A stretch of 64,000 nt of DNA from positions 73,993-137,992 of the forward strand of contig LSNL01000003.1 in the NCBI GenBank assembly GCA_003056145.1. Direction: 5' to 3'. Below the pieces are notes generated by a model that saw nothing but the letters and a program-made list of their open reading frames with translations, did no database searches and was not told the origin of the DNA. This document shows positions 44,035 to 60,675 of this stretch, one piece after another (the first letter of the stretch is position 1; each line of letters begins with the position of its first letter). Made by a program: the position numbers and the translations under genes. This stretch comes from Parcubacteria group bacterium M10-OD1-1. Its GTDB lineage: Bacteria; Patescibacteriota; Minisyncoccia; Moranbacterales; UBA2206.

Positions 44035-44036
44035 AA

Positions 44037-45170
44037 ATGAAAAAGGAGAAGTTAAAATTAAAAGACACTATTGCTAAAGAAAAACGTCATTGGGTGAGAA
44101 TTACTAACTCTTGCAATAATAATTGTCTTTTTTGCTTAGACAAGGAAAATCAAGATGGAACTTTTGTTTCTTTTCAAGAAATTGTAAAAGAGTTTAAGAA
44201 AGGACTATCGCTGGGTGCAAAGCGGGTTATTATTTCTGGGGGAGATCCAACGATTCATCCTGATATTTTTAAAATTATCAAAAAAGCTAATTCAATAGGT
44301 TATAGTCATGTACAGATGATAAGTAATGGGAGAATGTTAGCTTATGGTGATTTTGCAAAAAAACTGAAAGAAGCAGGTTTAGATGAAATTACTATATCAA
44401 TGCATAGCCATATTAAAGAAAAGTTAGAGAAAATGACTCAAATAAAAGGGAGTTATGATCAAGCAATGAGGGGGCTTATAAATGCTTTGAAATATAAATT
44501 TATTGTGAGTGTGGATATTGTTATAAATAAAATAAATTATAAAACATTAGGAGACTCATTGAAATTCTTTATAAAATTAGGTGTTTCTGAATTTGATTTA
44601 TTATATGTAATCCCTTTTGGGAGTGCTTGGAAAAATAGAAAAAAACTTTTTTTTTCACCAGAAAAAGCCAAGGACTATCTAGATAAAGCATTTGAGTTAT
44701 CAGATAATCCAGATTTATTTATTTGGACCAATAGATTACCAGCTATTTTTTTAGAGGGCTACGAACATTTAATTCAAAACCCCATTAAGCTTAAAGATGA
44801 AGTTAATGGAACGCAAAAAGAATTTGAAGCATATATATTTAATAATAAAGAAAGGAATTGCAAAGGAGAGAGATGCAAATATTGTTTTATGAAAGATTTC
44901 TGTAGTGATTTGGAAGCTATTAAAAAAGAAGGCAAGTTAACTTCAAAAACTGAACCTATTTGTATATCAAAAAAAAAGGTAAAAAAATATACATTCAAAC
45001 TGGATAAAAAGTTTGATGTATATAATTTTCTAGATTTTTATATTCAGCATCGATATTTTGTAAAAAGTTTAAGATGTACTAATTGTCGTTATAATAATAA
45101 TTGTTCTGGTGCTCACATTGAAAAAATTAGAAAGGAAGGATTTAAAATTTTAAAACCAATTAAAGAATAA
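44037..45170 (+). CDS. Radical SAM protein (same paralog group), extended Cys-rich C-terminus
   Basis: SCNNNCLFCLD, SGGDPT, C-terminal CKGERCKYCFMKDFC...CTNCRYNNNCSGAH. Confidence 0.8.
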   Translation: MKKEKLKLKDTIAKEKRHWVRITNSCNNNCLFCLDKENQDGTFVSFQEIVKEFKKGLSLGAKRVIISGGDPTIHPDIFKIIKKANSIGYSHVQMISNGRMLAYGDFAKKLKEAGLDEITISMHSHIKEKLEKMTQIKGSYDQAMRGLINALKYKFIVSVDIVINKINYKTLGDSLKFFIKLGVSEFDLLYVIPFGSAWKNRKKLFFSPEKAKDYLDKAFELSDNPDLFIWTNRLPAIFLEGYEHLIQNPIKLKDEVNGTQKEFEAYIFNNKERNCKGERCKYCFMKDFCSDLEAIKKEGKLTSKTEPICISKKKVKKYTFKLDKKFDVYNFLDFYIQHRYFVKSLRCTNCRYNNNCSGAHIEKIRKEGFKILKPIKE

Positions 45171-45274
45171 TTGCGGAATAAGAAATCAATACTAAATTCA
45201 GAGTTAGTTAATTATATAAAGTATGCTAAAAAGTTAAAATACAAAAATATTATTAATTTTCTTGATTATTATAT

Positions 45275-47068: not shown

Positions 47069-47082
47069 AAATAAAAAATAAT

Positions 47083-48018
47083 ATGGCAAAAATAGGATAT
47101 ATCCAAGTAACTCGTACTTGTAATCAAAAATGTATAATTTGTTCTAATCCTCCTAATGAAAAAGTGTTAAGTCTACAAACAGCCAAACTGGAAATAGATA
47201 AATTAAAAAATAATGGTTGCACAGGAGTTATTCTTACAGGAGGAGAACCAACTCTTTATGAGAAATTACCAGAGCTAATTAGATATAGCTTTAAGAAAAA
47301 TATTTTTCCTAGAATTATTACTAATGGGCAAAAAATAGCTAAGCTAAGATATTTAAAAACTCTTCAACGAGCTGGATTAAAACATATACATCTTTCTATT
47401 TTTTCTTATCAAAGTAAAATTCAAGCTAAAATTTCTCAGAATAATCATTCACTTTATAATATAAAAAGGGCTTTAGACAACTTAAACAAAGTAGAAGGCA
47501 TAACCGTTGATGTTAATACGGCTATTAGTAAATATAATGCTAATCATTTATCTAAAACGGTTCAATGGATTGTAAAAAATTATCCTTTTATAAATCATTT
47601 TGTATTTAATAATCTAGATCCTTATATGAATAGAGCCATGAAGAATCCTCAGATAATTCCCACTCTTAATGATTTTGAATTAGAGCTACACAGAGCTTTA
47701 AGTTTTTTAGAAAAAAATAAAAAAACTTTTCGAGTTGAGAAAGTCCCGTTGTGTTATTTGACGGACTATGAGCATGTTTCTACAGAAACTCGAAAAATTG
47801 TTAAGAAAGAGAGCAGAACAGTGTATTTTTTAGATGAGAAGAAGAGAGTAACTCAAAAAAGCTGGTTTTCTAGAAAAACAGATGACTGTCAACAATGTTC
47901 TTTGAAAAATATTTGTTCAGGATTGTATGCTATTGGGGGTTTTTATAAAGAGACAGAATTATATGCTGTCTTTGAAGATCCGAAAAAAATAATTAAAAAA
48001 ATTAGACAAAACCAATGA
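47083..48018 (+). CDS. Radical SAM protein (same paralog group)
   Basis: TRTCNQKCIICSN, TGGEPT, C-terminal CQQCSLKNICSG. Confidence 0.8.
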   Translation: MAKIGYIQVTRTCNQKCIICSNPPNEKVLSLQTAKLEIDKLKNNGCTGVILTGGEPTLYEKLPELIRYSFKKNIFPRIITNGQKIAKLRYLKTLQRAGLKHIHLSIFSYQSKIQAKISQNNHSLYNIKRALDNLNKVEGITVDVNTAISKYNANHLSKTVQWIVKNYPFINHFVFNNLDPYMNRAMKNPQIIPTLNDFELELHRALSFLEKNKKTFRVEKVPLCYLTDYEHVSTETRKIVKKESRTVYFLDEKKRVTQKSWFSRKTDDCQQCSLKNICSGLYAIGGFYKETELYAVFEDPKKIIKKIRQNQ

Positions 48019-48965
48019 TTTTTAATTATTTATTTCTGGGAGTAATTTTATTAGTTAGTTTGGTAATTTGTTGGGAAGACATTCAGCATAAAAAAATTAG
48101 AAACAAATTAATTCTAATTGGTTTGCTCTTAGGCGCTATTTTATTCGGAGGCTCATATTTTTTAGGATGGATTAATAATTATTATTTAAAAGTTGTTTTC
48201 TTTAACACTGTAATTGCGATAGTAGTTAGTTTTTTAATTTGGAAAATGGGATTTTGGCCAGCTGGAGATAGCAAATATTTTATATTGATAGCTTTTCTTT
48301 TACCAATACATTATTATAATAAGTCATACTTGGAATATTTTCCTTCTTTTATCTTATTAGTGAATATATTTATTTTATTCGTAGGAATTATTTTAGTTAA
48401 AGTAATATATTTTAACTCAAGAAGTTTTATAATCTTTTCAGCCAAAACAAACAGAGGAGAGCTTAAGCAAAAATTTTTTCAAGTAGTGAATACTCTTATA
48501 GTCAATATGCAAAATGTAAGTAACTGGAAAAAATGGGGGAAGGGGATGCTATTAGGGGGAATGATGTATTTTATTCTAAGTTTTTTTATTTATAAACGGA
48601 GTATTGATTTAGTGCCTTTCTTTATATATTCAACGGCCTTTGGCTTATTTGATGTTATTTTTAATTTTTACAATCAATCATTTGCTAAAAAATCTATAGA
48701 CATTATTAATTTACAGCCAAAAATGAATTTAGCTGATGAGTTTCCAAGCGATTTAAAAAAAGATAAAGAAAGAATAGAGAAAATTGGGAAATTAAGGCCA
48801 GACGGATTAGATAAACAACAGGTAAGAGTTATTAAAGAATACTATATCAGTAAAGACTTGAAGCAGATTTATATTTATAAAACAATTCCTTTTTCAATCT
48901 GGATATTTATTGGTACGGTAATAACAATAATTTTTCAAAGAAATATTATCCAGATTATTTTATAA
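48015..48965 (+). CDS. Polytopic membrane protein with an N-terminal A24-like (prepilin-peptidase/TadV-type) aspartic peptidase signature
   Basis: WEDIQHK... (first Asp) and WPAGDSKYFILIAF (GxGD-type second Asp) about 65 aa apart, then about 190 aa of extra TM region. Confidence 0.4.
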   Translation: MIFNYLFLGVILLVSLVICWEDIQHKKIRNKLILIGLLLGAILFGGSYFLGWINNYYLKVVFFNTVIAIVVSFLIWKMGFWPAGDSKYFILIAFLLPIHYYNKSYLEYFPSFILLVNIFILFVGIILVKVIYFNSRSFIIFSAKTNRGELKQKFFQVVNTLIVNMQNVSNWKKWGKGMLLGGMMYFILSFFIYKRSIDLVPFFIYSTAFGLFDVIFNFYNQSFAKKSIDIINLQPKMNLADEFPSDLKKDKERIEKIGKLRPDGLDKQQVRVIKEYYISKDLKQIYIYKTIPFSIWIFIGTVITIIFQRNIIQIIL

Positions 48966-48980
48966 TATTTTCAAAAAAAG

Positions 48981-50576: not shown

Positions 50577-50598
50577 TTATTTTTTTTGATCTAAACTA

Positions 50599-51279: not shown

Positions 51280-51358
51280 TTAAAGCTCTCATTCGTAAAA
51301 GCAGAATAGCTACTCAATATCTGAATTAGTTACAAAATTATTTTTATTCTTTATTTAT

Positions 51359-51862
51359 ATGAAAAATCATCAAAGTATCAAAACTAAAAAAAATCTTAAA
51401 AAAAATGAAATTAGCTTTTTATTGAAGACTGATATTTATCCAAAATATATTATCTATAAAGCTTGTTATACTTTTATTGATCGGGTGTATATTTATTTGG
51501 ATAAACATACTAAAGAAGATATAAAAGTTACTTTAAAGGGTAAAAATAAATTAAAAGATAAGGATATAGATTCATTAAAAGGATTATTCCTTAACGAATT
51601 ATTAAATGTAATTTTAAGAGAAAATATTACCAAAAGGAATAAAAAGATATTAGAGTATATTGTTGGTGGAGCTATTAATGCTTCTTTGGAAAATAATAAA
51701 TTAGTAGAGTTGGAGAATAAAAGTAAAGACCAGCTAGATAAGAAAGAATCAGAAGAAGATATTAATGTTGAAAAAGAGATAGCAATTTTAAAAAAAGAAT
51801 TGGAGAAAATGGAAGAAGAAGATTTTGAAAATGATTCTCTTGGAATTAAAGAAGTCTGTTAG
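51359..51862 (+). CDS. Hypothetical Lys-rich protein with a coiled-coil C-terminus
   Basis: ORF only. Confidence 0.35.
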   Translation: MKNHQSIKTKKNLKKNEISFLLKTDIYPKYIIYKACYTFIDRVYIYLDKHTKEDIKVTLKGKNKLKDKDIDSLKGLFLNELLNVILRENITKRNKKILEYIVGGAINASLENNKLVELENKSKDQLDKKESEEDINVEKEIAILKKELEKMEEEDFENDSLGIKEVC

Positions 51863-51888
51863 TTTTTAAGTAGATAAAAAAGATAAGG

Positions 51889-52119
51889 ATGAAAAAAAGA
51901 TTAACGAAAAAAATGAAATTTAGTTGCAGTTTATATAGCCAGCAAAGCGTTGAAAAGACCATTGATAATTTTAGAGATGGTAACCAAGATATTGAATTTA
52001 AATTTAAGAGAATTAAAGGATATGTAGAAATAGTAATTAATTATTCAAATTCAAAATTAGTTAACGAAGAATTTATAAATGAATTTTCTAATTATTTATT
52101 ATTTCTTAATATTAAATAA
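51889..52119 (+). CDS. Small hypothetical protein (76 aa) immediately upstream of an rSAM/SPASM gene
   Basis: ORF abutting the 52122 start by 2 nt. Candidate partner or precursor. Confidence 0.3.
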   Translation: MKKRLTKKMKFSCSLYSQQSVEKTIDNFRDGNQDIEFKFKRIKGYVEIVINYSNSKLVNEEFINEFSNYLLFLNIK

Positions 52120-52121
52120 AA

Positions 52122-53600
52122 ATGAAAACTAAAAATAAAGAGATGAAAGTTTCTAAGATAGGTAATTTTAGATTCAAAGAATTTAAAAATAAAGTTCTTA
52201 TTACAAATGATGGAGGAGATTGGATGTGGCTTAGCTCAGATAATTTTAGTAAGTTATCAACAGGAGAAATTAAAAAAGATAATCGGATATATCAAGAACT
52301 AGTCAAGAAAAATTTTGTAGATGTTGATAAAAAAAAAGTAATAAAGTTGGCCAGAAAATATTTGCGATTAAATCAAACAGTTTTTCAAGGTACTTCTTTA
52401 TTTATTATCGTTTTAACGTTGCGATGTAATCACCGTTGTCTTTATTGTCAGGCTATACCAGAACATCCTAGCAAAAAAGGGTTTGATATGGATAAGGAGC
52501 AAGCAAGAAAAGTAGTAGATTTAATTTTTTGTACGCCTTCTCATTATGTTAATATTGAATTTCAAGGAGGAGAACCTCTTTTGAATTGGGAAATCTTAAA
52601 ATATATAACTAAATATGCTAAAAAAGTTAATAAAGAAAAGAAAAAGGATTTAGGAATTAGTTTAGTGTCTAATCTAACTTTATTAAACGATGAAAAATTA
52701 AAGTATTTATTAGACAACAATATAAGTATTAGTTGTTCTTTTGATGGACCTTCATATGTTCATAATAAAAATAGGCTTTATTTAGAGGATAATAATGGTC
52801 ATAAGGCAGTTGTAGCTAAAATAATCAAAGTTCAAAAAGCGATTAAAGCTAAGAAGAAAATAAATAAAAATAAATTCGTTGATCAACTTAATGCCGTTTT
52901 AACCGTTAGTCGTTTCGCACTTCCTTATCCTAAAAAAATTGTTGATGAGTATTTAAAAAGAGGATTTGGAAATATTTTTATTAGACCCTTAAGTCCTTTC
53001 GGGTTAGAAAGGAAAACTTTAGATATAATCGGTTATAAGGCGGAAGATTTTATCAAGTTCTATATAAAGATGATGGACTATATTCTAAAAATTAATTTAG
53101 AAAAAAAAATGTTCATAGAGAGGACTACTTTCTATGCTTTGAAGAAAATTATACAACAAGAAGATCCTGGATATTATGAAATGAGATCTCCCTGTGGAGC
53201 TGGTATTGGACAGATGGCGTTTGATTATGATGGTAGGATATTCACTTGTGATGAAGGAAGAATGGCAGCTAGAATGGGTTATGATAATTTTATGCTAGGT
53301 GATGTTAATGAAAATGATAATAGGGAAGGTTATAATAAATTGATTGATAATGAAGTTACTAAAACTATGTGTCTAGCTTCATCATTAGATAATTATACTG
53401 AATGTCAAAATTGTCCGTACAAACCATATTGTGGAACTTGTCCTCTAGCAAATTTTATTGAATTCGGAACAATTATGCCTCAAATTTCTAATACTGATCG
53501 TTGTAAAATAAATAAGGCGATGTTTGATTATATCTTTTTAAAAATGAAAAATGAAAAATACCGAGCTATTTTTAACAGTTGGTTGGAAAATTCAAAGTAG
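52122..53600 (+). CDS. Radical SAM/SPASM peptide-modifying enzyme with an about 90-aa N-terminal extension
   Basis: LRCNHRCLYCQ, QGGEPLL, C-terminal CGAGIGQ...CDEG...CQNCPYKPYCGTCP (SPASM auxiliary-cluster Cys). Confidence 0.85.
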   Translation: MKTKNKEMKVSKIGNFRFKEFKNKVLITNDGGDWMWLSSDNFSKLSTGEIKKDNRIYQELVKKNFVDVDKKKVIKLARKYLRLNQTVFQGTSLFIIVLTLRCNHRCLYCQAIPEHPSKKGFDMDKEQARKVVDLIFCTPSHYVNIEFQGGEPLLNWEILKYITKYAKKVNKEKKKDLGISLVSNLTLLNDEKLKYLLDNNISISCSFDGPSYVHNKNRLYLEDNNGHKAVVAKIIKVQKAIKAKKKINKNKFVDQLNAVLTVSRFALPYPKKIVDEYLKRGFGNIFIRPLSPFGLERKTLDIIGYKAEDFIKFYIKMMDYILKINLEKKMFIERTTFYALKKIIQQEDPGYYEMRSPCGAGIGQMAFDYDGRIFTCDEGRMAARMGYDNFMLGDVNENDNREGYNKLIDNEVTKTMCLASSLDNYTECQNCPYKPYCGTCPLANFIEFGTIMPQISNTDRCKINKAMFDYIFLKMKNEKYRAIFNSWLENSK

Positions 53601-53603
53601 TTT

Positions 53604-54764
53604 ATGAAATCAAAAAGTCAAATCAGTAGAAAGAATGATATACCTGAAAGCCTAAATTTATTTTTTACTGACAGATGTAATTTGGACTGTCAATATTGTT
53701 TTGTTAATAAAAATGGACATAAAGAAAATACTTTAGAGGAAGATTCTTTAAAGAAAAGTGTTGATTTGTTATTGGAATATCCTCAAGCAGAGAAAATGAT
53801 TAGTTTCAGTGGAGGGGAACCAATATTAGAATTTTCATTATTAAAGAATATTTGTGACTATGCTAAAAAAAAAGCGTTGCAAAAAAGAAAAAAGTTGCAT
53901 ATGTTTGTTGCTACTAATGGGACACTTCTAAATCAAAAGATAGTAGATTATTTTTCGAAAAATAATATTGCTATTAAAATTAGTCTTGATGGTAGTAAGG
54001 AAACCCATGATAAAAACCGTTCCTTTAAAAATCAATCTCATCTGTCTAGTTTTAAGCAAATAATGGACAATTTAGCTAGTATTGATACTAGTCGATTAAA
54101 TGTTTCAATTTCTATGGTTTTTACTCCCGAAACAATAGATAATCTTTTAGATAATATTAAATTTTTAAATAAAAAATCATTTACTGCTATTAATTTTTAT
54201 CCAGATTTATATGCAAATTGGAAAAAAAATGACTTAATTAAATTTAAACAAACATTTAATAAATTCGCAATTTATTATGTCAATCTCTTTGACCAAAATA
54301 AAGTAAATAATATTTTTAAAAATTATTTTTTGGATTCTATCTTTAACAAAGTGAATAGCAATAAGATGAGTAATTGTGATAAACTAAACTTAAGTTCGTC
54401 AGGTCAATTTTATGTTTGTGATAAAGTTCTTTCTATTAAGGACGTTAAACGAAAAAATTATATCATTGGAAATGTTAAACAAGGTGTTAATAATCAGAAA
54501 AGGATAGAATCTTTAAGAAAAATCAGGGATGATTTTTTGAAAACTAGTAAGCTGAATTGTGAGAAGTGTCAGTATTATGAATATTGTTTCTGTCCAATAG
54601 GACATTATATTTATTTCTCGAATAGTATAGAGAAAAATAAAAATGATTATTGGAAAAATTTTTGTTTTATATCCCGAAACTATAGTAAGATTTTTCTAGC
54701 TATAAATAAATCATTAGAAGATAACAAAAAATATATCAAAATATATAAACAAAATAAGTTGTAG
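53604..54764 (+). CDS. Radical SAM/SPASM peptide-modifying enzyme
   Basis: TDRCNLDCQYCF, SGGEPIL, C-terminal CEKCQYYEYCFCPIGH. Confidence 0.85.
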   Translation: MKSKSQISRKNDIPESLNLFFTDRCNLDCQYCFVNKNGHKENTLEEDSLKKSVDLLLEYPQAEKMISFSGGEPILEFSLLKNICDYAKKKALQKRKKLHMFVATNGTLLNQKIVDYFSKNNIAIKISLDGSKETHDKNRSFKNQSHLSSFKQIMDNLASIDTSRLNVSISMVFTPETIDNLLDNIKFLNKKSFTAINFYPDLYANWKKNDLIKFKQTFNKFAIYYVNLFDQNKVNNIFKNYFLDSIFNKVNSNKMSNCDKLNLSSSGQFYVCDKVLSIKDVKRKNYIIGNVKQGVNNQKRIESLRKIRDDFLKTSKLNCEKCQYYEYCFCPIGHYIYFSNSIEKNKNDYWKNFCFISRNYSKIFLAINKSLEDNKKYIKIYKQNKL

Positions 54765-54799
54765 TATTTTTTAAAAGTGGTATAATAAAAAAGTAATAG

Positions 54800-55090
54800 T
54801 TGTTATATAATCCTATGAAAAGAATAAATAATAAGTTTCCAAAAATAAAAAAAGAATTAAAGACTTTTTTATTAAGCGAAGAGGGAAAAATTGTTGAGAA
54901 AGATGCTATTAAATTAGGAATCGCATTAATTGCAGTCGCTGGAATTTTAAGCGGAGTAATGAAAATTAAGGATGTTCACGCAGGAACTTGTGCTCACGTA
55001 TCTCATGGTTCTCATGGTTCTCATGGTTCTCATGGCTCTCATGGCTCTCATGGCTCTCATGGTTCTCATTCTCAAGGTGGTTGGTGTTAA
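54800..55090 (+). CDS. His-Xaa-Ser repeat peptide, a candidate RiPP precursor: leader with a hydrophobic helix plus CAHV-(SHG)7-SHSQGGWC
   Basis: Seven perfect SHG triplets flanked by Cys at the extreme C-terminus. Located between two rSAM/SPASM pairs. Confidence 0.7.
   Translation: MLYNPMKRINNKFPKIKKELKTFLLSEEGKIVEKDAIKLGIALIAVAGILSGVMKIKDVHAGTCAHVSHGSHGSHGSHGSHGSHGSHGSHSQGGWC
55001..55069. repeat. 9-bp tandem repeat (tctcatggy x7) encoding (SHG)7
   Basis: Read from the sequence. The third position of Gly alternates t/c. Confidence 0.85.
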
Positions 55091-55120
55091 TCTGGCTATT
55101 TAATTTTTAAAATAATTAAA

Positions 55121-56026
55121 ATGAAAAGAAAAATAATTATTGGAGCAATTGTCATTTTATTGCTAGTGATTTTAAGTGCATTGGGACTATTTTTTCTTCG
55201 AGACAATAATCAGACAAGTAATTCTATAAATAATCCTAAAGAACAAACAAGCAATAATATTAAAGCAGGTAACCAAATAAATAATAGTATTAATTTTAAT
55301 AACCAAAAAAACAATAATATCAAAACAGGAAAAATTTTTAAAAGGAGTAACTTACAAGATTGTCAACAAAATTTATTAAAGGATAATTATACTCAGAATG
55401 ATTTTAGTTTAGAATATTATTATGTAGTCAAATCATTTTTAAACAAGAATCAAAAATTTTGTAAATTACTCAGAAATAAAGATTCGGTAGATAATTGTAA
55501 TAATATATATAGTTTGTATGTATCCTTAGCTAATAATAACTGCCAAAGCATTAAAAATAATAAAACTGCTTATTCGTTTTGTTTAGCAAATTCAAAGCAC
55601 AATATTAATCTCTGTCCAACAGAAAATAAAGATTCTCAGCAGATTTGTCAAGCAATTACGAAAGGAGATGAAACAATGTGTCAAGGGCTAAAAGATACAA
55701 AGACTGATCACACTTTAAATCGATGTCGGAATGAAGTTTATTTAGCTAAGGCAGTTGAAAATAAAAATGTTTCTTTATGTCAAAAAATTAAAGCAATCAA
55801 TCCACAGGGATCTGCCGAAAAGTTTATTTGCGATGTTTTCACTGGAGATAGTCAATCTAGTTTAACGAAGGCGCTCAATTCTTTTAAAGAAAATATTTGT
55901 TACGAGCGATACGGAAATGTTACTGCTAAAGAAAAAAATAATAAATCTATTTGTGAAAAAATTCCTTGGAAAAGTGACTTTAGTAAGATAGGATATCAAG
56001 AATGTATTAATCAGTTTAATCAGTAA
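55121..56026 (+). CDS. Membrane-anchored Asn-rich protein with 14 periodically spaced Cys
   Basis: N-terminal TM, then repeated x(10-20)-C-(Q/x) units. Confidence 0.5.
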   Translation: MKRKIIIGAIVILLLVILSALGLFFLRDNNQTSNSINNPKEQTSNNIKAGNQINNSINFNNQKNNNIKTGKIFKRSNLQDCQQNLLKDNYTQNDFSLEYYYVVKSFLNKNQKFCKLLRNKDSVDNCNNIYSLYVSLANNNCQSIKNNKTAYSFCLANSKHNINLCPTENKDSQQICQAITKGDETMCQGLKDTKTDHTLNRCRNEVYLAKAVENKNVSLCQKIKAINPQGSAEKFICDVFTGDSQSSLTKALNSFKENICYERYGNVTAKEKNNKSICEKIPWKSDFSKIGYQECINQFNQ

Positions 56027-56036
56027 TTATAATTTT

Positions 56037-56954
56037 TTGAGAAATAAATATTTAGCTGAAAATGTTTTAAACCTAGCTGATAATTTAGAAGTCTCTCCCT
56101 TAACAATAAAAAAAACCACTTCTTTCTTAAACAAATTAATCAAATTAGATTCTAAAAAGATAACTCAATTTGAGTTATCTTTTAAGGCTAAGAGGCAGCT
56201 TAAAGAAAAAAGAAAAATTCGGATTTTAAATATTGATTCTAAAGCGTATTCTTATTTTAGCCAAAAATTATACACGAAGAGAATAAATGATTATTATTCA
56301 TTAATTCAAGATAATAATAATCCGTGGTTAGCAAGGTTATTCCGTAGTTTATTATCTATTGCAGATAATCCGTTGGATGTTTATATGGGGGCTGATGTAG
56401 AGAACAATTATTGTCTTTATGCATTCTGGCTAATATTTGGAGGTGCTCAAAAAGACGGAAAAATAAGCTTTGTTAAAAACAGCAATGAGCTAATTAACAA
56501 AATATTTAAAACTCTAAAAATAAAACCAGAATTTCCAGTCAGCAAGGACATACTTAATTTAGGATTTGATATTGATAATAGCTCTTTTTTTTATAAAATT
56601 TATTATTTTTTAAATAAAAATAATTATAATACAATTAGTCAAGAAAGCAGGTCGGTAGTACATACTATTATTAAATTTTTGAAAAATAACCATAAGTATT
56701 GGTTTTTTGTCAGCGAAAGATTTGAAGTAGGGAAAAAAAATATCAATAGAAAAAAAATATACCTAGAGTTCTTAGATGATTTAAAAATAAATCAAGAAGA
56801 AACCTATAAATTACTTGACCATCTATTAAAAATAATTGGATGTGATTATAAAATTAAAAAAATAAAATCCCTGCTGAAAAACATCAAAGGAAAAATTGTT
56901 ATTTTGGCGTTTGAGGATGATGGGACAACAACATTTTATATAAGGCTAGATTGA
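56037..56954 (+). CDS. Hypothetical protein (305 aa, TTG start) inside the rSAM cluster
   Basis: ORF only. Its stop (TGA at 56952-56954) abuts the ATG of the next rSAM gene at 56955. Confidence 0.4.
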   Translation: MRNKYLAENVLNLADNLEVSPLTIKKTTSFLNKLIKLDSKKITQFELSFKAKRQLKEKRKIRILNIDSKAYSYFSQKLYTKRINDYYSLIQDNNNPWLARLFRSLLSIADNPLDVYMGADVENNYCLYAFWLIFGGAQKDGKISFVKNSNELINKIFKTLKIKPEFPVSKDILNLGFDIDNSSFFYKIYYFLNKNNYNTISQESRSVVHTIIKFLKNNHKYWFFVSERFEVGKKNINRKKIYLEFLDDLKINQEETYKLLDHLLKIIGCDYKIKKIKSLLKNIKGKIVILAFEDDGTTTFYIRLD

Positions 56955-58046
56955 ATGATGAAGATTAATAAAAAAATTAGTAAAATTAAGTTAACATTAA
57001 CTACTAATTGCAATTTGGCTTGCAATTATTGTTTTGTTAAAAAAACTAACGAAAGGACGTCTTTTGATGTGGCTAAAAAAAGTATTGATTTGCTTTTAAA
57101 CTCTCCTGGCAATGAGAAACTACTTTCTTTATACGGAGGAGAACCTCTTCTAATGTTTAGTTTGATTAAACAAATTGTTGCTTATTCTCAGAAGCTAGCT
57201 AGCAAGAACAAAAAAAAACTCACTATTTCCATTTGCACTAATTTAACTTTTATTAATGAAGAAATTAAAAAGTTTATCAAAGAAAATAGCTTAAAGATTA
57301 CAATTAGTGTCGTCGGTATAGCAAAAGATCATAATAAATTCAGAAGCTTTATTAATGGAGTTGGGTCACATCAGAAAGTTATTGAAAATATTAAAGAAAT
57401 TTTCAAAATTTTACCAGCAGAAAATATCGGCATTTCTTTTGTTGTCCTTCCGGAATTAAGTTCACGGTTATTAGATAATATTCAATATATTAATAATCTA
57501 GAGATAAGTAATAAAAATATTAATTTTGAAATAATTCAAGACTATAAGGAATGGGATAAAAATAGCATAGAGAATTTTAAAAATAGTTATAAAAAAATTA
57601 GTCAAAAACTTTTAAGAAGTATTTCACAAAAGAAAAAAACAACATATTTTAATATAATCAATTGGGAATTAGAGAAAAAGGCAATTAGCCAAAAATTAGG
57701 AAATAGTTGTCCGTTTGAGTATTTATTAGAAATCTATCCTTCTGGAGATATTGCGTTCTCTCCATTTTTGTTAAATAAAAAAAATAAAAAGGATTTTATC
57801 ATTGGCAATGTTAAAGAATTAAAATTAAAAAGATATAATAACTGTCAATATATTAAAAATGATAAAAAATGCCAAAAATGTCAACAAATTTATTTTCAAA
57901 AAAATAAAAGTTTTGATAATGCTAATAAAGTAAAAATGTATTATGATATAATAAGTTTAGCCACTGCTAGAATAATTCAAGAAAAAGGAAAATCAGAGAA
58001 ATCATTTAAAAACTATATTACTGAAGCTAAAAAGCGATGTTTTTAA
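56955..58046 (+). CDS. Radical SAM/SPASM peptide-modifying enzyme
   Basis: TTNCNLACNYCF, YGGEPLL, C-terminal CQKCQQ. Confidence 0.85.
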   Translation: MMKINKKISKIKLTLTTNCNLACNYCFVKKTNERTSFDVAKKSIDLLLNSPGNEKLLSLYGGEPLLMFSLIKQIVAYSQKLASKNKKKLTISICTNLTFINEEIKKFIKENSLKITISVVGIAKDHNKFRSFINGVGSHQKVIENIKEIFKILPAENIGISFVVLPELSSRLLDNIQYINNLEISNKNINFEIIQDYKEWDKNSIENFKNSYKKISQKLLRSISQKKKTTYFNIINWELEKKAISQKLGNSCPFEYLLEIYPSGDIAFSPFLLNKKNKKDFIIGNVKELKLKRYNNCQYIKNDKKCQKCQQIYFQKNKSFDNANKVKMYYDIISLATARIIQEKGKSEKSFKNYITEAKKRCF

Positions 58047-58127
58047 ATTTAATTAGTTAAAAATTTGAAGTGAAATAAATTTTGTAATCGGTGTCTCTAC
58101 AGAGTGGGTTTAAATTAATTTAATAGA

Positions 58128-59237
58128 ATGAATAAATCAATTAATAGTAAAGGAGTTTCTTTTTACCCAAGGCAAATAGATATTTGTTTTAGTGAAAAAT
58201 GCAATTTAGATTGTGATTATTGTTTTGTTAATAAGACAAGCGATAAGGTTTTAGATATTAAAAAAATCAAATCAGCTATAGATATTTTTCTGGATTTTCC
58301 AGGAAAAAATAAAACAATTACTTTCACTACCAGCGAACCATTTATTAATCCGAGGCTTTTTAGAGATTCAATAAAATATATTTTTCAAGAGGTTAAGAAA
58401 AAAAATATCAATATTTTGGTTATTGCAACTACCAATGGAATTCTTTTTAATAGAGAAATGCAGGAGTTTATTAAACGGTTAGATGATAGATTTATACTTA
58501 ATTTTAGTCTAGACGGGAAAGAAGATAGTCATAATGCACACAGAAAAATTAAAAATTCCCAAAGCAATTATTTTGAATTAGCAATTAAAAATTTTAGCAA
58601 TTTTTCTAGAAAAAATGGATATGTTAGAATTATTTCTACTATTGCTTCAGACCAAGTAAATTTTTTGCTGACTAATACTGAATTTATTATTAAACAAGGG
58701 TTCTCATATATTGATTTATTTCCTCAACTGTTTAAAATATGGAGTAAAAAAGAAAGAGATGTTTTAGAGAGCAGTTTAAATTCTATAGTTGATAAAATTA
58801 ATAAAAAAGAGGTAAAATTAGATTTAAGGATTCTAAATAGATTATGGGTAAGCACAGATTATGCAAAAATTATGTTGGGAGCAGATGGAAAATTTTATTT
58901 ATTTGAATGGGTGTTACCATTAAAAGAAAAGCATAGAAAGTTATTCCAAATAGGGGATTATCGGCATATTAATTTAGCCAAAAGAAAAAAATTGTTCGAG
59001 CTATTATTTAATCAGATATCAAAAGTAAATAAATCAAAATGTAGTACTTGTGAATATAATGCTTTTTGTTCAGATCCATTACCACTATATTTGTGGAGTC
59101 TATATAATAAATATGATTTTTTAACCTATTTTAAAAACTTTTGTCAAATTTCTAAAATCATGATCAGGATAAGCAATAGAATTAAAATTAAAAATAGAAC
59201 CGATAAAAGTAAATGGGAAGAAGTTATTAAAAAATAA
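58128..59237 (+). CDS. Radical SAM protein with a degenerate SAM-binding (GGE) motif
   Basis: SEKCNLDCDYCF is present, but the GGEP position reads TTSEPFI. C-terminal CSTCEYNAFC. Confidence 0.7.
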   Translation: MNKSINSKGVSFYPRQIDICFSEKCNLDCDYCFVNKTSDKVLDIKKIKSAIDIFLDFPGKNKTITFTTSEPFINPRLFRDSIKYIFQEVKKKNINILVIATTNGILFNREMQEFIKRLDDRFILNFSLDGKEDSHNAHRKIKNSQSNYFELAIKNFSNFSRKNGYVRIISTIASDQVNFLLTNTEFIIKQGFSYIDLFPQLFKIWSKKERDVLESSLNSIVDKINKKEVKLDLRILNRLWVSTDYAKIMLGADGKFYLFEWVLPLKEKHRKLFQIGDYRHINLAKRKKLFELLFNQISKVNKSKCSTCEYNAFCSDPLPLYLWSLYNKYDFLTYFKNFCQISKIMIRISNRIKIKNRTDKSKWEEVIKK

Positions 59238-59239
59238 AT

Positions 59240-59941
59240 ATGAAAAAAATTAAAGTAGCTTGCGTAATTAGTGGAGGGAAGGATGGAATTTTTGGATATT
59301 ATCAATCTGTTAAAAAATATAATGTTGCAGTTTTACTGAATTTAAATGACAACAATAAAGATGTGAGTTTTCATCATTATCAAAAAGAATTAGTCGCATT
59401 GCAAGCCAAAGCGATTGGATTGCCATTAATACAAAAGACAGTAGTTGCTCAATATAGAAATCAAAATCTTTTTGAAGAGCAAATTTTTGATATTTTCTCT
59501 AAACTTAAAAAAGATGGGATTAGAGGTGTAATTCTTGGCTATGTTTTAACAGGTGATTATCAGCATGATTTATTAAAAAGAATTTGTAGTGAATTAGAGA
59601 TAAAACTTATTTTACCAAACTATAAAAGAAATTCGAAAATTGTCTTAACGGAAATCATTGAATCAAATATTGTAGCTATTATTACTTCTGTTATGAAAGG
59701 TAAGATTGCTAGGGAGTGGTTAGGGAAGCCAATTGATAAAAAATTCTTAAAGTATTTAATGAATAAAAAAAATATAGATTTTTGTGGTGACAAAGGAGAA
59801 TTTCACACTTTTGTTGTAGACGCCCCATTTTTTAAAAAGAAAATTTATTTTAATGAAATAGAAAAAAATAAAATACCTCTCAAAGATGATTTTTATGAAT
59901 ATTGTTTGAAAATTAAAAAATATTCTTTTCAGGATAGATAA
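59240..59941 (+). CDS. PP-loop ATP pyrophosphatase of the DUF71/MJ0570 (Dph6-related) family
   Basis: VACVISGGKDG (SGGxD PP-loop) at the N-terminus, about 230 aa. Confidence 0.55.
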   Translation: MKKIKVACVISGGKDGIFGYYQSVKKYNVAVLLNLNDNNKDVSFHHYQKELVALQAKAIGLPLIQKTVVAQYRNQNLFEEQIFDIFSKLKKDGIRGVILGYVLTGDYQHDLLKRICSELEIKLILPNYKRNSKIVLTEIIESNIVAIITSVMKGKIAREWLGKPIDKKFLKYLMNKKNIDFCGDKGEFHTFVVDAPFFKKKIYFNEIEKNKIPLKDDFYEYCLKIKKYSFQDR

Positions 59942-59952
59942 TTTTTAAAAAT

Positions 59953-60675
59953 ATGGAGAATAATAATATTTATATTTTAAATTTAGACTCTTGCAATCAA
60001 AGATGTTTATTCTGTATGAAAGTAGATGATTTGAATAATAATAACCATATTAAAGAATTAGCTGATGTAAAAAAAGAAATATTTAAGGCCAAAGAAAATG
60101 GCTATCAACTAATTGATTTTTTTGGAGGAGAGCCAACTGTTTTTTCTTTTCTTTCTAAATCCATTTCTTTAGCACAGAAGAATGGAATGTTAGTGATGTT
60201 AGCCACTAATGGGGTAAAATTTTCTTCGAAAGAATATGCAACCAATTTTTTTAAAGAAATAGATTCACAAAAGATAACTTTTAGAGTATCAATGCATAGT
60301 CAAAATCACGGAGTACATGATTACATAACTCAATTAAAGGGAAGTCACAAAAGAACAGAAACTGGAATCTTAAACATATTAAATTATGTTGAGAAATTAA
60401 CAGCTAATATTGTGATAACATCTTTAAATTTTAAAGAGTTGAGTAAAATAGTTCAATATTTACATGGTTTAGGAGTGAAAGGTGTAAAGTTCTCTGCTTT
60501 GCAATTGCAAGGGGAGATTCTAAAGAATAAACGATTAATTGTTGATTATAAAGAATTTAGGAAATACCTTTTAGAGGCGGTACTATTGTCAAAAAAATTA
60601 AAATTTAAAAGCATTGAAATTGAGAAAATTAATAAAAGTGAATTGAATAAATTAAATTTTGTAAAGTTTCTATAA
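59953..60675 (+). CDS. Small radical SAM protein (CNNNC-type paralog group, 240 aa, no SPASM)
   Basis: DSCNQRCLFCM, FGGEPT. Confidence 0.8.
   Translation: MENNNIYILNLDSCNQRCLFCMKVDDLNNNNHIKELADVKKEIFKAKENGYQLIDFFGGEPTVFSFLSKSISLAQKNGMLVMLATNGVKFSSKEYATNFFKEIDSQKITFRVSMHSQNHGVHDYITQLKGSHKRTETGILNILNYVEKLTANIVITSLNFKELSKIVQYLHGLGVKGVKFSALQLQGEILKNKRLIVDYKEFRKYLLEAVLLSKKLKFKSIEIEKINKSELNKLNFVKFL

What the first reader, a model, noticed from the sequence alone, without database searches (positions are those of the whole stretch)
52122..59237. Two adjacent pairs of SPASM-type radical-SAM enzymes bracket the repeat peptide; one member has lost the GGE SAM-binding motif
The pairs are 52122/53604 (upstream of the peptide) and 56955/58128 (downstream). 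All four share a CN(L/H)xC(x)YC(F/Q) cluster-I motif and a C-terminal Cys cluster (SPASM-like). 58128 carries TTSEPFI where the others have (Q/S/Y)GGEP(L/I)L. This suggests an inactive or scaffolding paralog, as is seen for some paired maturases. 52122 has an approximately 90-aa N-terminal extension before the rSAM core that could be a precursor-recognition (RRE/PqqD-like) domain.
Basis: seen in the sequence. Interest (0 to 1): 0.6.

Follow-up and report, generated by a model that had tools for sequence, protein, structure and literature searches.

The report
Expanded His-Xaa-Ser peptide maturation cluster
The four radical-SAM genes are real and belong to an eight-radical-SAM version of the known His-Xaa-Ser (HXS) peptide-maturation system, and the one without the usual GGE motif belongs to a small, strongly conserved enzyme family rather than being a decayed copy.

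Summary
**Verdict: observation largely right, interpretation half right. This is a new variant of a known kind.**

- **Observation.** The four ORFs, the quoted motifs and the ~80-aa N-terminal extension are all present. Only 52122 and 53604 carry the full seven-Cys SPASM pattern.
- **Known system.** 52122 is HxsB (479 bits, cutoff 370). It follows HxsD and an HxsD-like gene, and precedes a (His-Gly-Ser)x7 HxsA3-like precursor. This is an HXS system; the E. coli version was shown in 2026 to be antiphage.
- **Larger than reported.** The cluster spans 43138-60675. It holds eight radical-SAM genes, a YcaO, a Dph6-like ATP pyrophosphatase and an A24-type peptidase. The same gene set recurs in Patescibacteria, Omnitrophota, Elusimicrobiota and DPANN archaea.
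- **The GGE-less protein (58128).** T-T-S-E-P aligns exactly on GGEP. All 12 family representatives found among 1.84 billion proteins have a non-Gly variant. All 12 keep the Glu, CX3CxYC and SxDG, and 11 of 12 keep the four Aux-II-type cysteines. Nearest outgroups have GGE. Active radical-SAM enzymes without GG are known, so "inactive scaffold" is not supported.
- **Its partner.** Wherever enough flanking sequence is available, 58128 travels with unknown protein 56037. The two are fused in one Nanoarchaeota MAG.
- **HxsB extension.** It models as beta3-alpha3. Its top structural hits are RRE (RiPP recognition element, PqqD-like) proteins but weak, and sequence tests fail.

The parts
43138..44034 (+). 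Radical-SAM gene (298 aa), HxsC4/HxsC-like clade
   Evidence: NCBIfam HxsC4 NF038332 scores 162.7 bits (cutoff 500) and HxsC TIGR03977 scores 104 bits (cutoff 267.9). Orthologues of 61-67% identity occur in L004, L005, L015, L017, L018, L075 and L082.
44037..45170 (+). Radical-SAM gene (377 aa), HxsC-like clade, ISGGDP motif
   Evidence: HxsC TIGR03977 scores 100.5 bits and HxsC4 scores 102 bits, both below cutoff. It is conserved next to the 43138-type gene in related loci.
45275..47068 (+). YcaO-domain protein (597 aa)
   Evidence: TIGR00702 YcaO-type kinase domain scores 70.8 bits (cutoff 75.65) and the McrA thioamidation YcaO model gives E = 4.6e-24. YcaO genes also occur in L018, L075 and L083.
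47083..48018 (+). Radical-SAM gene (311 aa), HxsC-like, CX2CX5C tail
   Evidence: HxsC TIGR03977 scores 93.8 bits. Orthologues of 59-70% identity precede the A24-like gene in L004, L015, L018 and L082 and end the rSAM run in L005, L017 and L075.
48015..48965 (+). Membrane protein with a Peptidase_A24 (prepilin-peptidase type) domain; candidate leader peptidase
   Evidence: Pfam PF01478 scores 33.4 bits, above the 26.5 cutoff. It co-occurs with the cluster in L004, L006, L007, L009, L015, L016, L018, L082 and L083. Its role is inferred.
51359..51862 (+). HxsD (167 aa)
   Evidence: TIGR03976 scores 58.7 bits, above the 50 cutoff.
51889..52119 (+). HxsD-like small protein (76 aa), a short paralogue of HxsD
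   Evidence: NF038315 scores 34.4 bits (cutoff 41). hhalign against the HxsD family gives probability 84%, E = 7.8e-6.
52122..53600 (+). HxsB: radical-SAM/SPASM maturase with an N-terminal beta3-alpha3 (RRE-like) domain at 52122-52406, CNHRCLYC at residues 102-109, QGGEP, and a full SPASM Cys set
   Evidence: TIGR03978 scores 479 bits, above the 370 cutoff, aligned over residues 15-488. The closest solved structure by sequence is CteB 5wgg, profile E = 7e-34. AlphaFold2 model of residues 1-100. Cys positions.
53604..54764 (+). S2: radical-SAM/SPASM enzyme (386 aa) occupying the position that HxsC holds in canonical HXS operons
   Evidence: The best NCBIfam hit is PapB-type at 181.8 bits (cutoff 340). 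HxsC is not among its 25 best families. Seven conserved SPASM Cys in 16 orthologues.
54815..55090 (+). HxsA3-like precursor peptide (91 aa from the ATG; the ORF opens at TTG 54800): conserved leader, hydrophobic helix, AXA-like site, core C-A-H-V-S-(HGS)7...GGWC
   Evidence: HxsA3 NF038309 scores 61 bits (cutoff 65) and HxsA4 scores 49 bits (cutoff 55). Orthologous peptides in 15 loci share LPxIKKxLKTFLLSEEGK and, in all but one, a C-terminal GGWC. The gene call in L001 gives 91 aa.
55001..55069 (+). 9-bp tandem repeat encoding the His-Gly-Ser repeats
   Evidence: TRF: period 9, 7.7 copies, 96% matches.
55121..56026 (+). Cys-rich protein with an N-terminal hydrophobic helix (301 aa), conserved directly after HxsA
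   Evidence: No family hit. Orthologues follow HxsA in L005, L014, L015, L017-L021, L075 and L082.
56037..56954 (+). Unknown 305-aa protein, the constant companion of S4 and fused to it in one archaeal MAG
   Evidence: No Pfam or PDB sequence match. It is present with S4 in the window and in every related locus with readable flanks (L004, L005, L006, L008, L009, L082, L083, L084). P0158 / L007 7427-9481 is an S4::56037 fusion; the 56037 HMM matches residues 388-683 at E = 9e-93.
56955..58046 (+). S3: radical-SAM enzyme (363 aa), YGGEP, reduced SPASM region with four invariant Cys (252, 297, 306, 309)
   Evidence: Pfam PF04055 E = 2.5e-14. PapB-type scores 150.6 bits (cutoff 340). Cys conservation in 15 orthologues.
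58128..59237 (+). S4: radical-SAM enzyme (369 aa) with CNLDCDYC (nt 58200-58223), T-T-S-E-P in place of GGEP (nt 58326-58340), and only the Aux-II-type Cys set C305/C308/C314/C339 (nt 59040-59144)
   Evidence: Family alignment A2. Profile alignment to CteB and anSME. AlphaFold2 pLDDT 89.9, with strand 61-66 preceding the motif. Foldseek TM 0.71 to CteB. Family census.
59240..59941 (+). Dph6-like ATP pyrophosphatase (233 aa)
   Evidence: TIGR03679 scores 125.7 bits (cutoff 197). Pfam Diphthami_syn_2 appears on the L001 gene call. It lies in the cluster in L005, L029, L082 and L084.
59953..60675 (+). Short radical-SAM protein (240 aa), HxsC-like, with no C-terminal Cys
   Evidence: HxsC TIGR03977 scores 89.8 bits. 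Orthologues occur in L004, L006, L007 and L084.

Best explanation
**What it is.** The four genes are part of one large operon-like cluster (43138-60675) that matures a His-Xaa-Ser repeat peptide. It is an expanded relative of the HxsABCD (HXS) system, found in Patescibacteria, Omnitrophota, Elusimicrobiota and DPANN archaea.

**Core module.** The order is HxsD, HxsD-like, HxsB, S2, HxsA3-like precursor. This mirrors the canonical order HxsD-HxsB-HxsC-HxsA, except that a full SPASM enzyme (S2) sits where HxsC normally does.

**Second module.** It comprises protein 56037, S3, S4 and a Dph6-like ATP pyrophosphatase. Elsewhere this module travels with its own HxsA copy (L004) or its own HxsD copy (L082), so it most likely works on the same kind of peptide.

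**Third set.** It comprises three HxsC-like radical-SAM genes, a YcaO and an A24-type membrane peptidase.

**Proposed mechanism (inferred, not shown).**
1. HxsB binds the conserved leader (LPxIKKxLKTFLLSEEGK) through its N-terminal beta3-alpha3 domain.
2. The radical-SAM enzymes install several modifications on the C-H-x-S-(H-G-S)n...GGWC core in the cytoplasm.
3. The peptide is then inserted or exported through its hydrophobic helix.
4. It is cut at the AXA-like site or by the A24-type peptidase.

**S4 (58128).** It is a selected, very probably cluster-binding and SAM-using enzyme. Its family replaced Gly-Gly of GGE by Thr/Ser-x and lost the Aux I cluster, while keeping the Aux II ligand set. 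It works as a unit with protein 56037. It is not a degenerate copy.
For: **Family assignments**
- HxsB scores 479 bits (cutoff 370). HxsD scores 58.7 bits (cutoff 50). The peptide matches HxsA3 at 61 bits (cutoff 65).
- The canonical system and its gene order are described in PMC13128918.

**Cluster extent and conservation**
- Extent in the window.
- The same gene set is contiguous in L004, L005, L015, L017, L018, L075 and L082, which come from several phyla.

**Second module acts on an HxS peptide**
- L004 has an HxsA copy directly before the 59953-type gene, 56037, S4 and S3, with no HxsB or S2 beside it.
- L082 has a second HxsD in front of the 56037-S3-S4-Dph6 block.

**S4 is under selection**
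- T63, T65 and E70 are invariant, and T67, T68, P71 and the CX3CxYC motif are at least 90% conserved in 37 clusters down to 37% identity.
- All 12 family representatives have a non-GG motif with an invariant Glu, SxDG and R139, and 11 of 12 have all four C-terminal Cys. GGE is present in 123 of the 131 alignable nearest outgroups.
- TTSEP aligns on the GGEP of CteB and anSME. The four Cys align on anSME C317, C320, C326 and C348, which are the Aux II ligands according to PMC5715301.
- The model is confident (pLDDT 89.9) and matches CteB at TM 0.71.
- GGE identity varies among active enzymes (PMC9204698).

**S4 works with 56037**
- The two are a natural fusion in P0158 / L007.
- Stop and start codons overlap in L006 and L083.

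**HxsB N-terminal domain:**
Against: - No chemistry was observed. All roles of the individual enzymes, the order of steps and the export route are inferred.
- The gene in the HxsC position is not an HxsC family member.
- The HxsC-like genes score far below the HxsC cutoff (90-104 bits against 267.9).
- The peptide misses the HxsA3 cutoff by 4 bits. It lacks the peptidoglycan-binding domain of E. coli HxsA.
- Conservation of motifs shows selection, not SAM cleavage. A cluster-binding but non-cleaving structural subunit would also conserve its cysteines.
- The S4::56037 fusion is seen in a single MAG and could be an assembly or frameshift artefact.
- The RRE assignment has no statistically significant structural or sequence match.
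Confidence: 0.68

Rival explanations
1. S4 (58128) is a catalytically dead radical-SAM paralogue. It serves as a scaffold or substrate-presenting subunit for S3 or protein 56037.
For: - Both glycines of GGE are replaced, and all Aux I ligands are missing.
- Wherever flanking sequence is available, S4 is found with an S3-type enzyme and protein 56037, often with overlapping stop and start codons, and once fused to 56037.
Against: - The CX3CxYC triad, the Glu, the SxDG ribose motif and R139 are conserved in every family member over a 37-100% identity range, and the four Aux-II-type Cys in all but one representative.
- Pseudo-radical-SAM proteins usually lose the cluster cysteines. This statement rests on my knowledge of NCBIfam TIGR04347, the 'pseudo-SAM' family.
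- Active enzymes lack GG: TokK has D-A-N and OxsB has A-D-E. The motif acts through a backbone hydrogen bond (PMC9204698).
Confidence: 0.14
2. S4 binds its cluster and SAM in a non-canonical way. As in TsrM, whose D-S-E motif places the Glu on the unique iron, it would perform non-radical or otherwise atypical chemistry together with protein 56037.
For: - The family motif [TS]-x-E, with an invariant Glu preceded by a non-Gly residue, resembles TsrM's D-S-E. In TsrM the Glu ligates the cluster and blocks radical chemistry (PMC9204698).
- The strict conservation of T-x-T-F-T-T suggests a specific new function of this loop rather than neutral drift.
- The obligate partner is of unknown fold.
Against: - S4 has no cobalamin-binding domain, and 56037 matches no family at all, cobalamin-binding or otherwise.
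- The overall model superposes on canonical CteB and anSME.
- TokK and OxsB show that non-GG motifs are compatible with normal radical chemistry.
- There is no direct evidence at all.
Confidence: 0.1
3. The window holds two or three independent systems that merely lie side by side. HxsD-HxsB-S2 would mature the HxS peptide. The 56037-S3-S4-Dph6 block and the HxsC-like/YcaO block would act on other substrates, for example the Cys-rich protein 55121 or a non-peptide molecule.
For: - The blocks occur in different orders and can be separated. L004 lacks HxsB and S2 next to S3 and S4. Many loci have S3 without S4.
- Gene content is highly variable. L084 has B12-binding radical-SAM genes.
Against: - The blocks are found together in at least nine loci from four or more phyla.
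- In L004 the S3/S4 block is preceded by its own HxsA-type peptide gene.
- In L082 it has its own HxsD.
- In the window the genes are packed with gaps of 0 to 81 nt on one strand.
Confidence: 0.12

Closest known systems
HXS antiphage system HxsABCD of E. coli, Klebsiella and Pseudomonas (TIGR03976-03979; Li et al., Nat Commun 2026, PMC13128918)
   Same: - HxsB and HxsD family members score above their curated cutoffs.
- The gene order is D, B, second radical-SAM gene, A.
- The substrate carries tandem His-Xaa-Ser repeats and an N-terminal export-type hydrophobic segment.
   Different: - The second enzyme is a SPASM protein, not HxsC.
- The substrate is a 76-135 aa peptide (179-204 aa in two loci) ending in GGWC, with no peptidoglycan-binding domain.
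- Six further radical-SAM genes, a YcaO, a Dph6-like protein and an A24-type peptidase are attached.
- The hosts are Patescibacteria, Omnitrophota, Elusimicrobiota and DPANN. The published survey found 99.7% of HXS systems in Pseudomonadota.
- Antiphage function is untested here.
CteB / SCIFF thioether (sactionine/ranthionine-type) maturases (PDB 5WGG; TIGR03974)
   Same: - CteB is the best solved-structure match for both HxsB (profile E = 7e-34) and S4 (Foldseek TM 0.71, E = 6e-15).
- Its architecture is the same as HxsB: N-terminal domain, radical-SAM core, SPASM region.
   Different: - Identity is only 19-25%.
- S2, S3 and S4 have no N-terminal domain.
- S4 lacks GG and Aux I.
- The N-terminal domains of HxsB and of CteB-family proteins show no significant profile-profile similarity.
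[quoted passage not shown]
   Same: - HxsB and S2 keep the seven-Cys motif.
- The S4 residues C305, C308, C314 and C339 align on the Aux II ligands C317, C320, C326 and C348.
   Different: S4 has none of the Aux I ligands (anSME C255, C261, C276, C330). It is therefore a 'half SPASM' of the opposite kind to Twitch.
Twitch-domain radical-SAM enzymes (MoaA, BtrN, SkfB)
   Same: A single auxiliary cluster is expected in both S3 and S4.
   Different: Twitch lacks CX2CX5CX3C and keeps the Aux I-type site (PMC5715301). S4 keeps CX2CX5C plus the distal Cys and lacks the Aux I site.
Radical-SAM enzymes with non-canonical GGE motifs: TokK (D-A-N), OxsB (A-D-E), TsrM (D-S-E)
   Same: They have non-glycine residues at the end of beta2, where GGE normally sits. 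TokK and OxsB are still SAM-cleaving (PMC9204698).
   Different: Those enzymes are cobalamin-dependent and unrelated in the rest of the sequence. The T-x-T-F-T-T-S-E-P loop of the S4 family was not found described in the papers searched.
PapB-type ranthipeptide maturases (NF047865)
   Same: This is the best NCBIfam model for S2, S3 and S4.
   Different: All three score well below the cutoff (182, 151 and 100 bits against 340). The substrate is not a Cys-X3-Asp/Glu-type ranthipeptide precursor.

Membership tests
HXS (HxsABCD) system | HxsB-family radical-SAM/SPASM maturase (TIGR03978) | tested here: met
   479.1 bits against a cutoff of 370, with full-length alignment over residues 15-488.
HXS (HxsABCD) system | HxsD small protein (TIGR03976 / PF27806) | tested here: met
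   58.7 bits against a cutoff of 50 for 51359-51862. A second, shorter paralogue lies at 51889-52119.
HXS (HxsABCD) system | HxsC-family radical-SAM partner (TIGR03977) adjacent to HxsB | tested here: not met
   The adjacent gene 53604 is a SPASM enzyme with HxsC absent from its 25 best families. HxsC-like genes elsewhere in the cluster score 90-104 bits against a cutoff of 267.9.
HXS (HxsABCD) system | Substrate with tandem His-Xaa-Ser repeats encoded next to the maturases | tested here: met
   Seven H-G-S repeats. HxsA3 NF038309 scores 61 bits against a cutoff of 65, so the curated model is narrowly missed.
HXS (HxsABCD) system | [quoted passage not shown] | tested here: not met
   The 91-aa peptide is too short to hold a separate domain and matches no PG-binding family (Pfam scan; PMC13128918). 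The antiphage function itself cannot be tested with these tools.
SPASM-domain radical-SAM enzymes | Seven-Cys motif CX9-15GX4C...CX2CX5CX3C...C binding two auxiliary clusters | tested here: inconclusive
   Met by 52122 and 53604, with slightly shortened spacers (CX2CX5CX2C and CX2CX5CX1C). Not met by 56955 (four Cys) or by 58128 (CX2CX5C plus one Cys).
Radical-SAM superfamily, canonical SAM site | CX3CX2C with an aromatic residue, GGE, ribose motif | tested here: inconclusive
   All four genes have CX3CxYC and SxDG. Three have GGE. 58128 has T-S-E at the aligned position, with the Glu invariant across its family. SAM binding itself is not testable here.
RRE / PqqD-like leader-recognition domain (for HxsB residues 1-95) | Three-stranded sheet followed by three helices (winged helix) | tested here: met
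   AlphaFold2 with a 75-sequence alignment gives strands 16-21, 24-29 and 34-38 and helices 39-47, 55-62 and 70-85. Mean pLDDT is 76.
RRE / PqqD-like leader-recognition domain (for HxsB residues 1-95) | Significant structural or sequence similarity to a known RRE | tested here: inconclusive
   - Foldseek: 11 of the top 20 PDB hits are RRE proteins (TbiB1, McbB, CteB), but the best E is 0.17 and TM is about 0.3.
- The full-length profile alignment to CteB runs into its N-terminal domain, profile position 39 to CteB residue 51.
- Pfam PqqD gives no hit at E <= 10.
- hhalign against CteB-family N-terminal domains gives probability 0.4%.
RRE / PqqD-like leader-recognition domain (for HxsB residues 1-95) | Binds the precursor leader peptide | not testable with these tools
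   Only a conserved leader motif, LPxIKKxLKTFLLSEEGK, is seen in the peptides of 15 loci.
Twitch-domain radical-SAM enzymes (considered for 58128) | Truncated SPASM lacking CX2CX5CX3C and retaining the Aux I-type site | tested here: not met
   58128 keeps CX2CX5C and the distal Cys, and lacks the Aux I ligands.
PapB-type ranthipeptide maturase (NF047865) | Score above the curated cutoff of 340 bits | tested here: not met
   181.8, 150.6 and 100.3 bits for 53604, 56955 and 58128 respectively.

The most novel reading that the evidence does not exclude
S4 together with protein 56037 would be a previously undescribed two-component radical-SAM enzyme, occasionally fused into one chain.

- It has an Aux-II-only 'half-SPASM' region and a T-x-T-F-T-T-S-E-P loop instead of GGE.
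- It would use its cluster and SAM in a non-canonical way, or gain a second activity from the unknown partner.
- The partner's sequence hints, very weakly, at a repeated beta-hairpin (ABBA-like) fold.
- The product would be a new type of modification on His/Ser/Trp/Cys residues of HxS-repeat peptides in ultra-small bacteria and archaea.
Probability: 0.15. Interest if true: 0.75.

Novelty: new variant of a known kind. Interest (0 to 1): 0.5.

Why it matters
- **Reach of the HXS system.** HXS was shown only in 2026 to be an antiphage system whose chemistry (a +8 Da change on an S-H-R-S-S motif) is unsolved. It was reported as almost exclusive to Pseudomonadota. This window shows a much larger relative in Patescibacteria, Omnitrophota, Elusimicrobiota and DPANN archaea. 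There a short, leader-bearing HxS peptide is surrounded by up to eight or more radical-SAM enzymes.
- **A more tractable substrate.** A short RiPP-like peptide is easier to work with for solving His-Xaa-Ser chemistry.
- **A natural experiment for enzymology.** The S4 family tests what the GGE motif and the Aux I cluster are needed for. It also points to an unknown partner protein that can be fused to it.
- **Annotation.** The GGE-less gene should not be called a pseudo-enzyme, and the cluster should be treated as one system.

Tried and rejected
1. A Pfam scan of HxsB residues 1-98 at E <= 10 gave no PqqD or RRE family, only noise.
2. A profile of 15 HxsB N-terminal domains against PDB sequences returned only designer pentatricopeptide-repeat proteins. 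These are sums of about 4-bit repeat hits, and I rejected them as an artefact.
3. hhalign of 115 HxsB N-terminal domains against 119 SCIFF-maturase (CteB-family) N-terminal domains gave probability 0.4% over 13 columns. There is therefore no sequence-level support for an RRE.
5. Protein 56037 gave the following results.
   - Pfam on 8 orthologues gave only faint single hits (crAss_MUZ_C at E = 0.003; Trp_DMAT at E = 0.21 in one member).
   - The profile against PDB gave nothing at E <= 1.
   - It is unrelated to HxsD.
   - Self-comparison shows only non-significant ~55-aa offsets.
   - The ABBA-prenyltransferase idea stays an untested lead.
6. HxsD is not similar to the HxsB N-terminal domain.
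7. PADLOC (2023) gave only generic viperin-type radical-SAM similarity and no defence-system assignment.
8. The idea that S3 and S4 are a recent duplicate pair was rejected. They share 61 bits, while each shares ~134 bits with S2.
9. The idea that the Cys before the repeats is a lipobox Cys (Lnt is nearby) was rejected. The Cys is replaced by Gly-Tyr or Ser-Tyr in L015, L018 and L021, and Lnt is absent from the related clusters.

Full report
**1. The observation**

The region is one densely packed + strand operon in a ~28% G+C window. Each matches Pfam Radical_SAM, with E-values from 9e-12 to 4e-18.

A four-way alignment confirms the quoted strings:
- CNHRCLYCQ, CNLDCQYCF, CNLACNYCF and CNLDCDYCF for the cluster-I motif.
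- QGGEPLL, SGGEPIL and YGGEPLL in three proteins, against TFTTSEPFI in 58128.
- An ~80-residue N-terminal extension in 52122.

The "SPASM-like" C-terminal cysteines are not equivalent:

| Gene | C-terminal Cys pattern |
|---|---|
| 52122 | CX17C...CX2CX5CX2C...C (full seven-Cys pattern) |
| 53604 | CX13C...CX2CX5CXC...C (full seven-Cys pattern) |
| 56955 | four family-invariant Cys: 252, 297, 306, 309 |
| 58128 | only C305-X2-C308-X5-C314 and C339 |

**2. What the genes are**

NCBIfam gives these assignments:

| Coordinates | Assignment | Score vs cutoff |
|---|---|---|
| 52122 | HxsB (TIGR03978), aligned over residues 15-488 | 479 vs 370 |
| 51359-51862 | HxsD | 58.7 vs 50 |
| 51889-52119 | HxsD-like | 34.4 vs 41 |
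| repeat peptide | HxsA3 | 61 vs 65 |

The HxsB alignment covers the N-terminal extension, so the extension is part of the family. hhalign confirms the HxsD-like gene as a short HxsD paralogue at probability 84%.

This is therefore a His-Xaa-Ser (HXS) system. A 2026 paper (PMC13128918) reports the following for the E. coli HxsABCD system:
- It blocks phage DNA entry.
- HxsB and HxsC are needed for N-terminal processing, and a +8 Da modification was mapped to an S-H-R-S-S motif; that mark could not be assayed in the deletion backgrounds.
- HxsC binds HxsD.
- 99.7% of systems are found in Pseudomonadota.

In the window the order is HxsD, HxsD-like, HxsB, 53604, HxsA3-like. However, 53604 (called S2 here) is a SPASM enzyme and not an HxsC. 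S2, 56955 (S3) and 58128 (S4) all score best, but below cutoff, on the PapB-type model.

**3. The system is much larger than the finding**

Directly after recG (40962-43043, minus strand) come these genes:
- Two HxsC/HxsC4-like radical-SAM genes, at 43138 and 44037.
- A YcaO-domain gene at 45275.
- A third HxsC-like radical-SAM gene at 47083.
- A membrane protein with a Peptidase_A24 domain at 48015.

Downstream of S4 lie two more genes:
- A Dph6-like ATP pyrophosphatase at 59240.
- A short HxsC-like radical-SAM gene at 59953.

That makes eight radical-SAM genes in 17.5 kb. They fall into two clades, {HxsB, S2, S3, S4} and {43138, 44037, 47083, 59953}. S2 is about equally close to S3 and to S4 (~134 bits each), whereas S3 and S4 share only 61 bits. 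The "pairs" are therefore positional, not duplicates.

**4. Conservation elsewhere**

I scanned one genome per species with the S4 family alignment, ran three context look-ups, and mapped the window's proteins on the returned loci by BLASTP.

The same gene set is found contiguously in these groups:
- Moraniibacteriota
- Saccharibacteria
- other Patescibacteria
- Omnitrophota
- Elusimicrobiota
- Nanoarchaeota and Pacearchaeota

The typical order has five parts:
1. HxsD, (HxsD-like), HxsB, S2, HxsA, Cys-rich protein.
2. 56037, S3 and sometimes S4, in variable order.
3. Dph6-like, in some loci.
4. Two or three HxsC-like radical-SAM genes, with YcaO in some loci.
5. The A24-type peptidase.

The precursor peptides share four features:
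- A conserved leader, LPxIKKxLKTFLLSEEGK.
- A hydrophobic helix.
- An AXA-like site.
- A core of the form (C)-H-x-S-(H-G/S-S)n, ending in all but one locus in G-G-W-C.

Two observations tie the S3/S4 block to HxS peptides:
- In L004 an HxsA copy directly precedes the 59953-type gene, 56037, S4 and S3, with no HxsB or S2 beside them.
- In L082 a second HxsD and a Cys-rich gene precede 56037, S3, S4 and the Dph6-like gene.

**5. The GGE-less enzyme**

A database search found 37 sequence clusters for S4, at 37-100% identity. In that alignment:
- T63, T65 and E70 are invariant.
- T67, T68, P71, C25, C29, Y31 and C32 are at least 90% conserved. The one sequence without the Cys triad is N-terminally truncated.

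A profile search of 1.84 billion representatives shows a sharp break after 12 family representatives at 340 bits or more.

All 12 have a non-Gly motif:

| Motif | Representatives |
|---|---|
| TSE | 5 |
| SGE | 2 |
| TGE | 1 |
| TTE | 1 |
| TME | 1 |
| AYE | 1 |
| SSE | 1 |

All 12 keep these features:
- an invariant Glu
- CX3CxYC
- the SxDG ribose motif
- R139

All four C-terminal Cys are kept in 11 of the 12. Among the next 138 relatives, 123 of the 131 alignable sequences have GGE.

The family profile aligns "itfttsEp" on the FFGGEP of CteB and the FQGGEP of anSME. It aligns "CakCeykklCanP...nFC" on anSME "CKKCKWFRLCKGGC...YYC".

According to PMC5715301, anSME Aux II is ligated by C317, C320, C326 and C348, and Aux I by C255, C261, C276 and C330. 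S4 therefore keeps exactly the Aux II set and none of the Aux I set. This is the opposite of a Twitch domain.

The AlphaFold2 model is confident at pLDDT 89.9. It places strand 61-66 immediately before the T-S-E-P loop. It superposes best on CteB (TM 0.71) and anSME.

A review of cobalamin-dependent radical-SAM enzymes (PMC9204698) makes these points:
- GGE residue identity varies.
- TokK (D-A-N) and OxsB (A-D-E) function normally.
- In TsrM (D-S-E) the Glu ligates the unique iron and prevents radical chemistry.

Loss of the two glycines is therefore no evidence of inactivity. The pattern of conservation argues for a selected function of this loop. Whether SAM is cleaved remains untested.

**6. 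The real partner of S4**

S4 was never found without an S3-type enzyme and the unknown 305-aa protein 56037. This holds for the window and for L004, L005, L006, L009, L082, L083 and L084. L007 carries the two as a fusion next to an S3-type gene, and the short contig L008 ends inside the 56037 gene.

S4 and 56037 often have overlapping stop and start codons, as in L006 and L083. In the Nanoarchaeota locus L007 they form one 684-aa ORF (P0158). Residues 388-683 of that ORF match the 56037 profile at E = 9e-93 over positions 6-304 of 305.

This gene fusion, seen once, is the strongest hint to how S4 works: as one unit with 56037. Protein 56037 has no Pfam or PDB sequence relatives and is unrelated to HxsD.

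**7. The HxsB extension**

Evidence for an RRE:
- The domain is conserved across 75 HxsB homologues. G32 is invariant, and F18, T28, L37, F42, L60, F65 and Y80 are at least 90% conserved.
- AlphaFold2 on residues 1-100 gives beta 16-21, beta 24-29, beta 34-38, alpha 39-47, alpha 55-62 and alpha 70-85, at pLDDT 76. This is the topology of RRE/PqqD domains.
- In Foldseek against the PDB, 11 of the top 20 hits are RRE proteins: TbiB1 with its leader peptide, McbB, and CteB. ThcOx and the PbtF RRE appear further down the list. That McbB and ThcOx contain RREs rests on my own knowledge.
- The full-length HxsB profile aligns to CteB from profile position 39 to CteB residue 51. That reaches into CteB's N-terminal domain.

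Evidence against:
- All of the Foldseek hits have E >= 0.17 and TM about 0.3.
- Pfam PqqD gives no hit.
- The N-terminal-only profile finds nothing real in the PDB.
- hhalign against 119 N-terminal domains of CteB-family proteins gives probability 0.4%.

The RRE reading is therefore plausible at the fold level and unproven.

**8. Proposed mechanism (inferred)**

1. HxsB docks the conserved leader.
2. HxsD-type proteins assist the enzymes that lack an N-terminal domain, as HxsD does for HxsC in E. coli.
3. The SPASM-clade and HxsC-clade enzymes modify the C-H-x-S-(HGS)n-GGWC core. Where present, the YcaO and the Dph6-like ATP-dependent enzyme contribute too.
4. The product is exported or anchored through the hydrophobic helix.
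5. It is released at the AXA-like site or by the A24-type peptidase.

Its biological role is open. Candidates are a phage barrier as in E. coli, a metal-binding peptide, or an antimicrobial peptide.

**9. Novelty and verdict**

NCBI already names the HxsB proteins of these lineages, and it has HxsA3, HxsD-like and HxsC4 models. The system type is therefore known.

I did not find the following described in the searchable literature:
- The eight-enzyme architecture.
- The replacement of HxsC by a SPASM enzyme.
- The S4 family, with its Aux-II-only half-SPASM and T-T-S-E loop.
- Its fusion-linked partner.

I rate this a new variant of a known kind, of moderate interest.

Noticed in passing
window 45275-47068: A 597-aa YcaO-domain protein sits between HxsC-like radical-SAM genes. 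The core peptide is (His-Gly-Ser)n with flanking Cys, so Gly-Ser and Gly-Cys sites for azoline or thioamide formation are available. YcaO genes also occur in L018, L075 and L083.
   Followed up: partly
window 59240-59941: A Dph6-like (diphthine-ammonia ligase family) ATP pyrophosphatase is encoded directly after S4. It recurs in L005, L029, L082 and L084. Finding an enzyme family known for finishing a modified histidine inside a His-repeat peptide cluster is striking, but its role was not tested.
   Followed up: partly
window 48015-48965: This membrane protein has a Peptidase_A24 (prepilin peptidase) domain, scoring 33.4 bits against a 26.5 cutoff. It is conserved at the end of the cluster in many loci and is a candidate leader peptidase for the HxsA3-type peptides.
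   Followed up: partly
L007 7427-9481 (Nanoarchaeota MAG JAGLZG010000136; protein P0158): A single 684-aa ORF fuses an S4-type radical-SAM enzyme to the unknown protein corresponding to window 56037-56954. It has been seen only once and could be an assembly artefact.
   Followed up: yes
window 56037-56954: This unknown 305-aa protein shows roughly five hairpin-like sequence blocks. Self-similarity at ~55-aa offsets is weak and non-significant, and one orthologue has a faint Trp_DMAT hit (E = 0.21). This might point to an ABBA/PT-barrel-like fold, and the peptides end in a near-invariant GGWC. The idea is untested.
   Followed up: partly
L010 13580-14540; L029 10458-11072: Some Patescibacteria loci encode extra, much longer HxsA-type peptides with 22 to 39 His-Xaa-Ser repeats and the same leader. 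In L010 there are two such genes in tandem.
   Followed up: no
L084 1-12262 (ENA ERZ1742237 NODE_657): This S4-containing cluster has at least ten radical-SAM genes in 12 kb. Four of them have B12-binding domains. Gene content in this system is clearly hypervariable.
   Followed up: no
window 55121-56026 and 50599-51279: Two Cys-rich proteins with N-terminal hydrophobic segments have no family match. The first is conserved immediately after HxsA in ten related loci. The second, together with the Lnt gene at 48981-50576, is absent from the related clusters and may be unrelated.
   Followed up: partly
L014 12375-13451: Another radical-SAM gene in the S4 position (before a 56037-type gene and S3) has F-V-T-A-E-S instead of GGE, although it belongs to a different subfamily. 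The GG loss may therefore have arisen more than once in this context.
   Followed up: no
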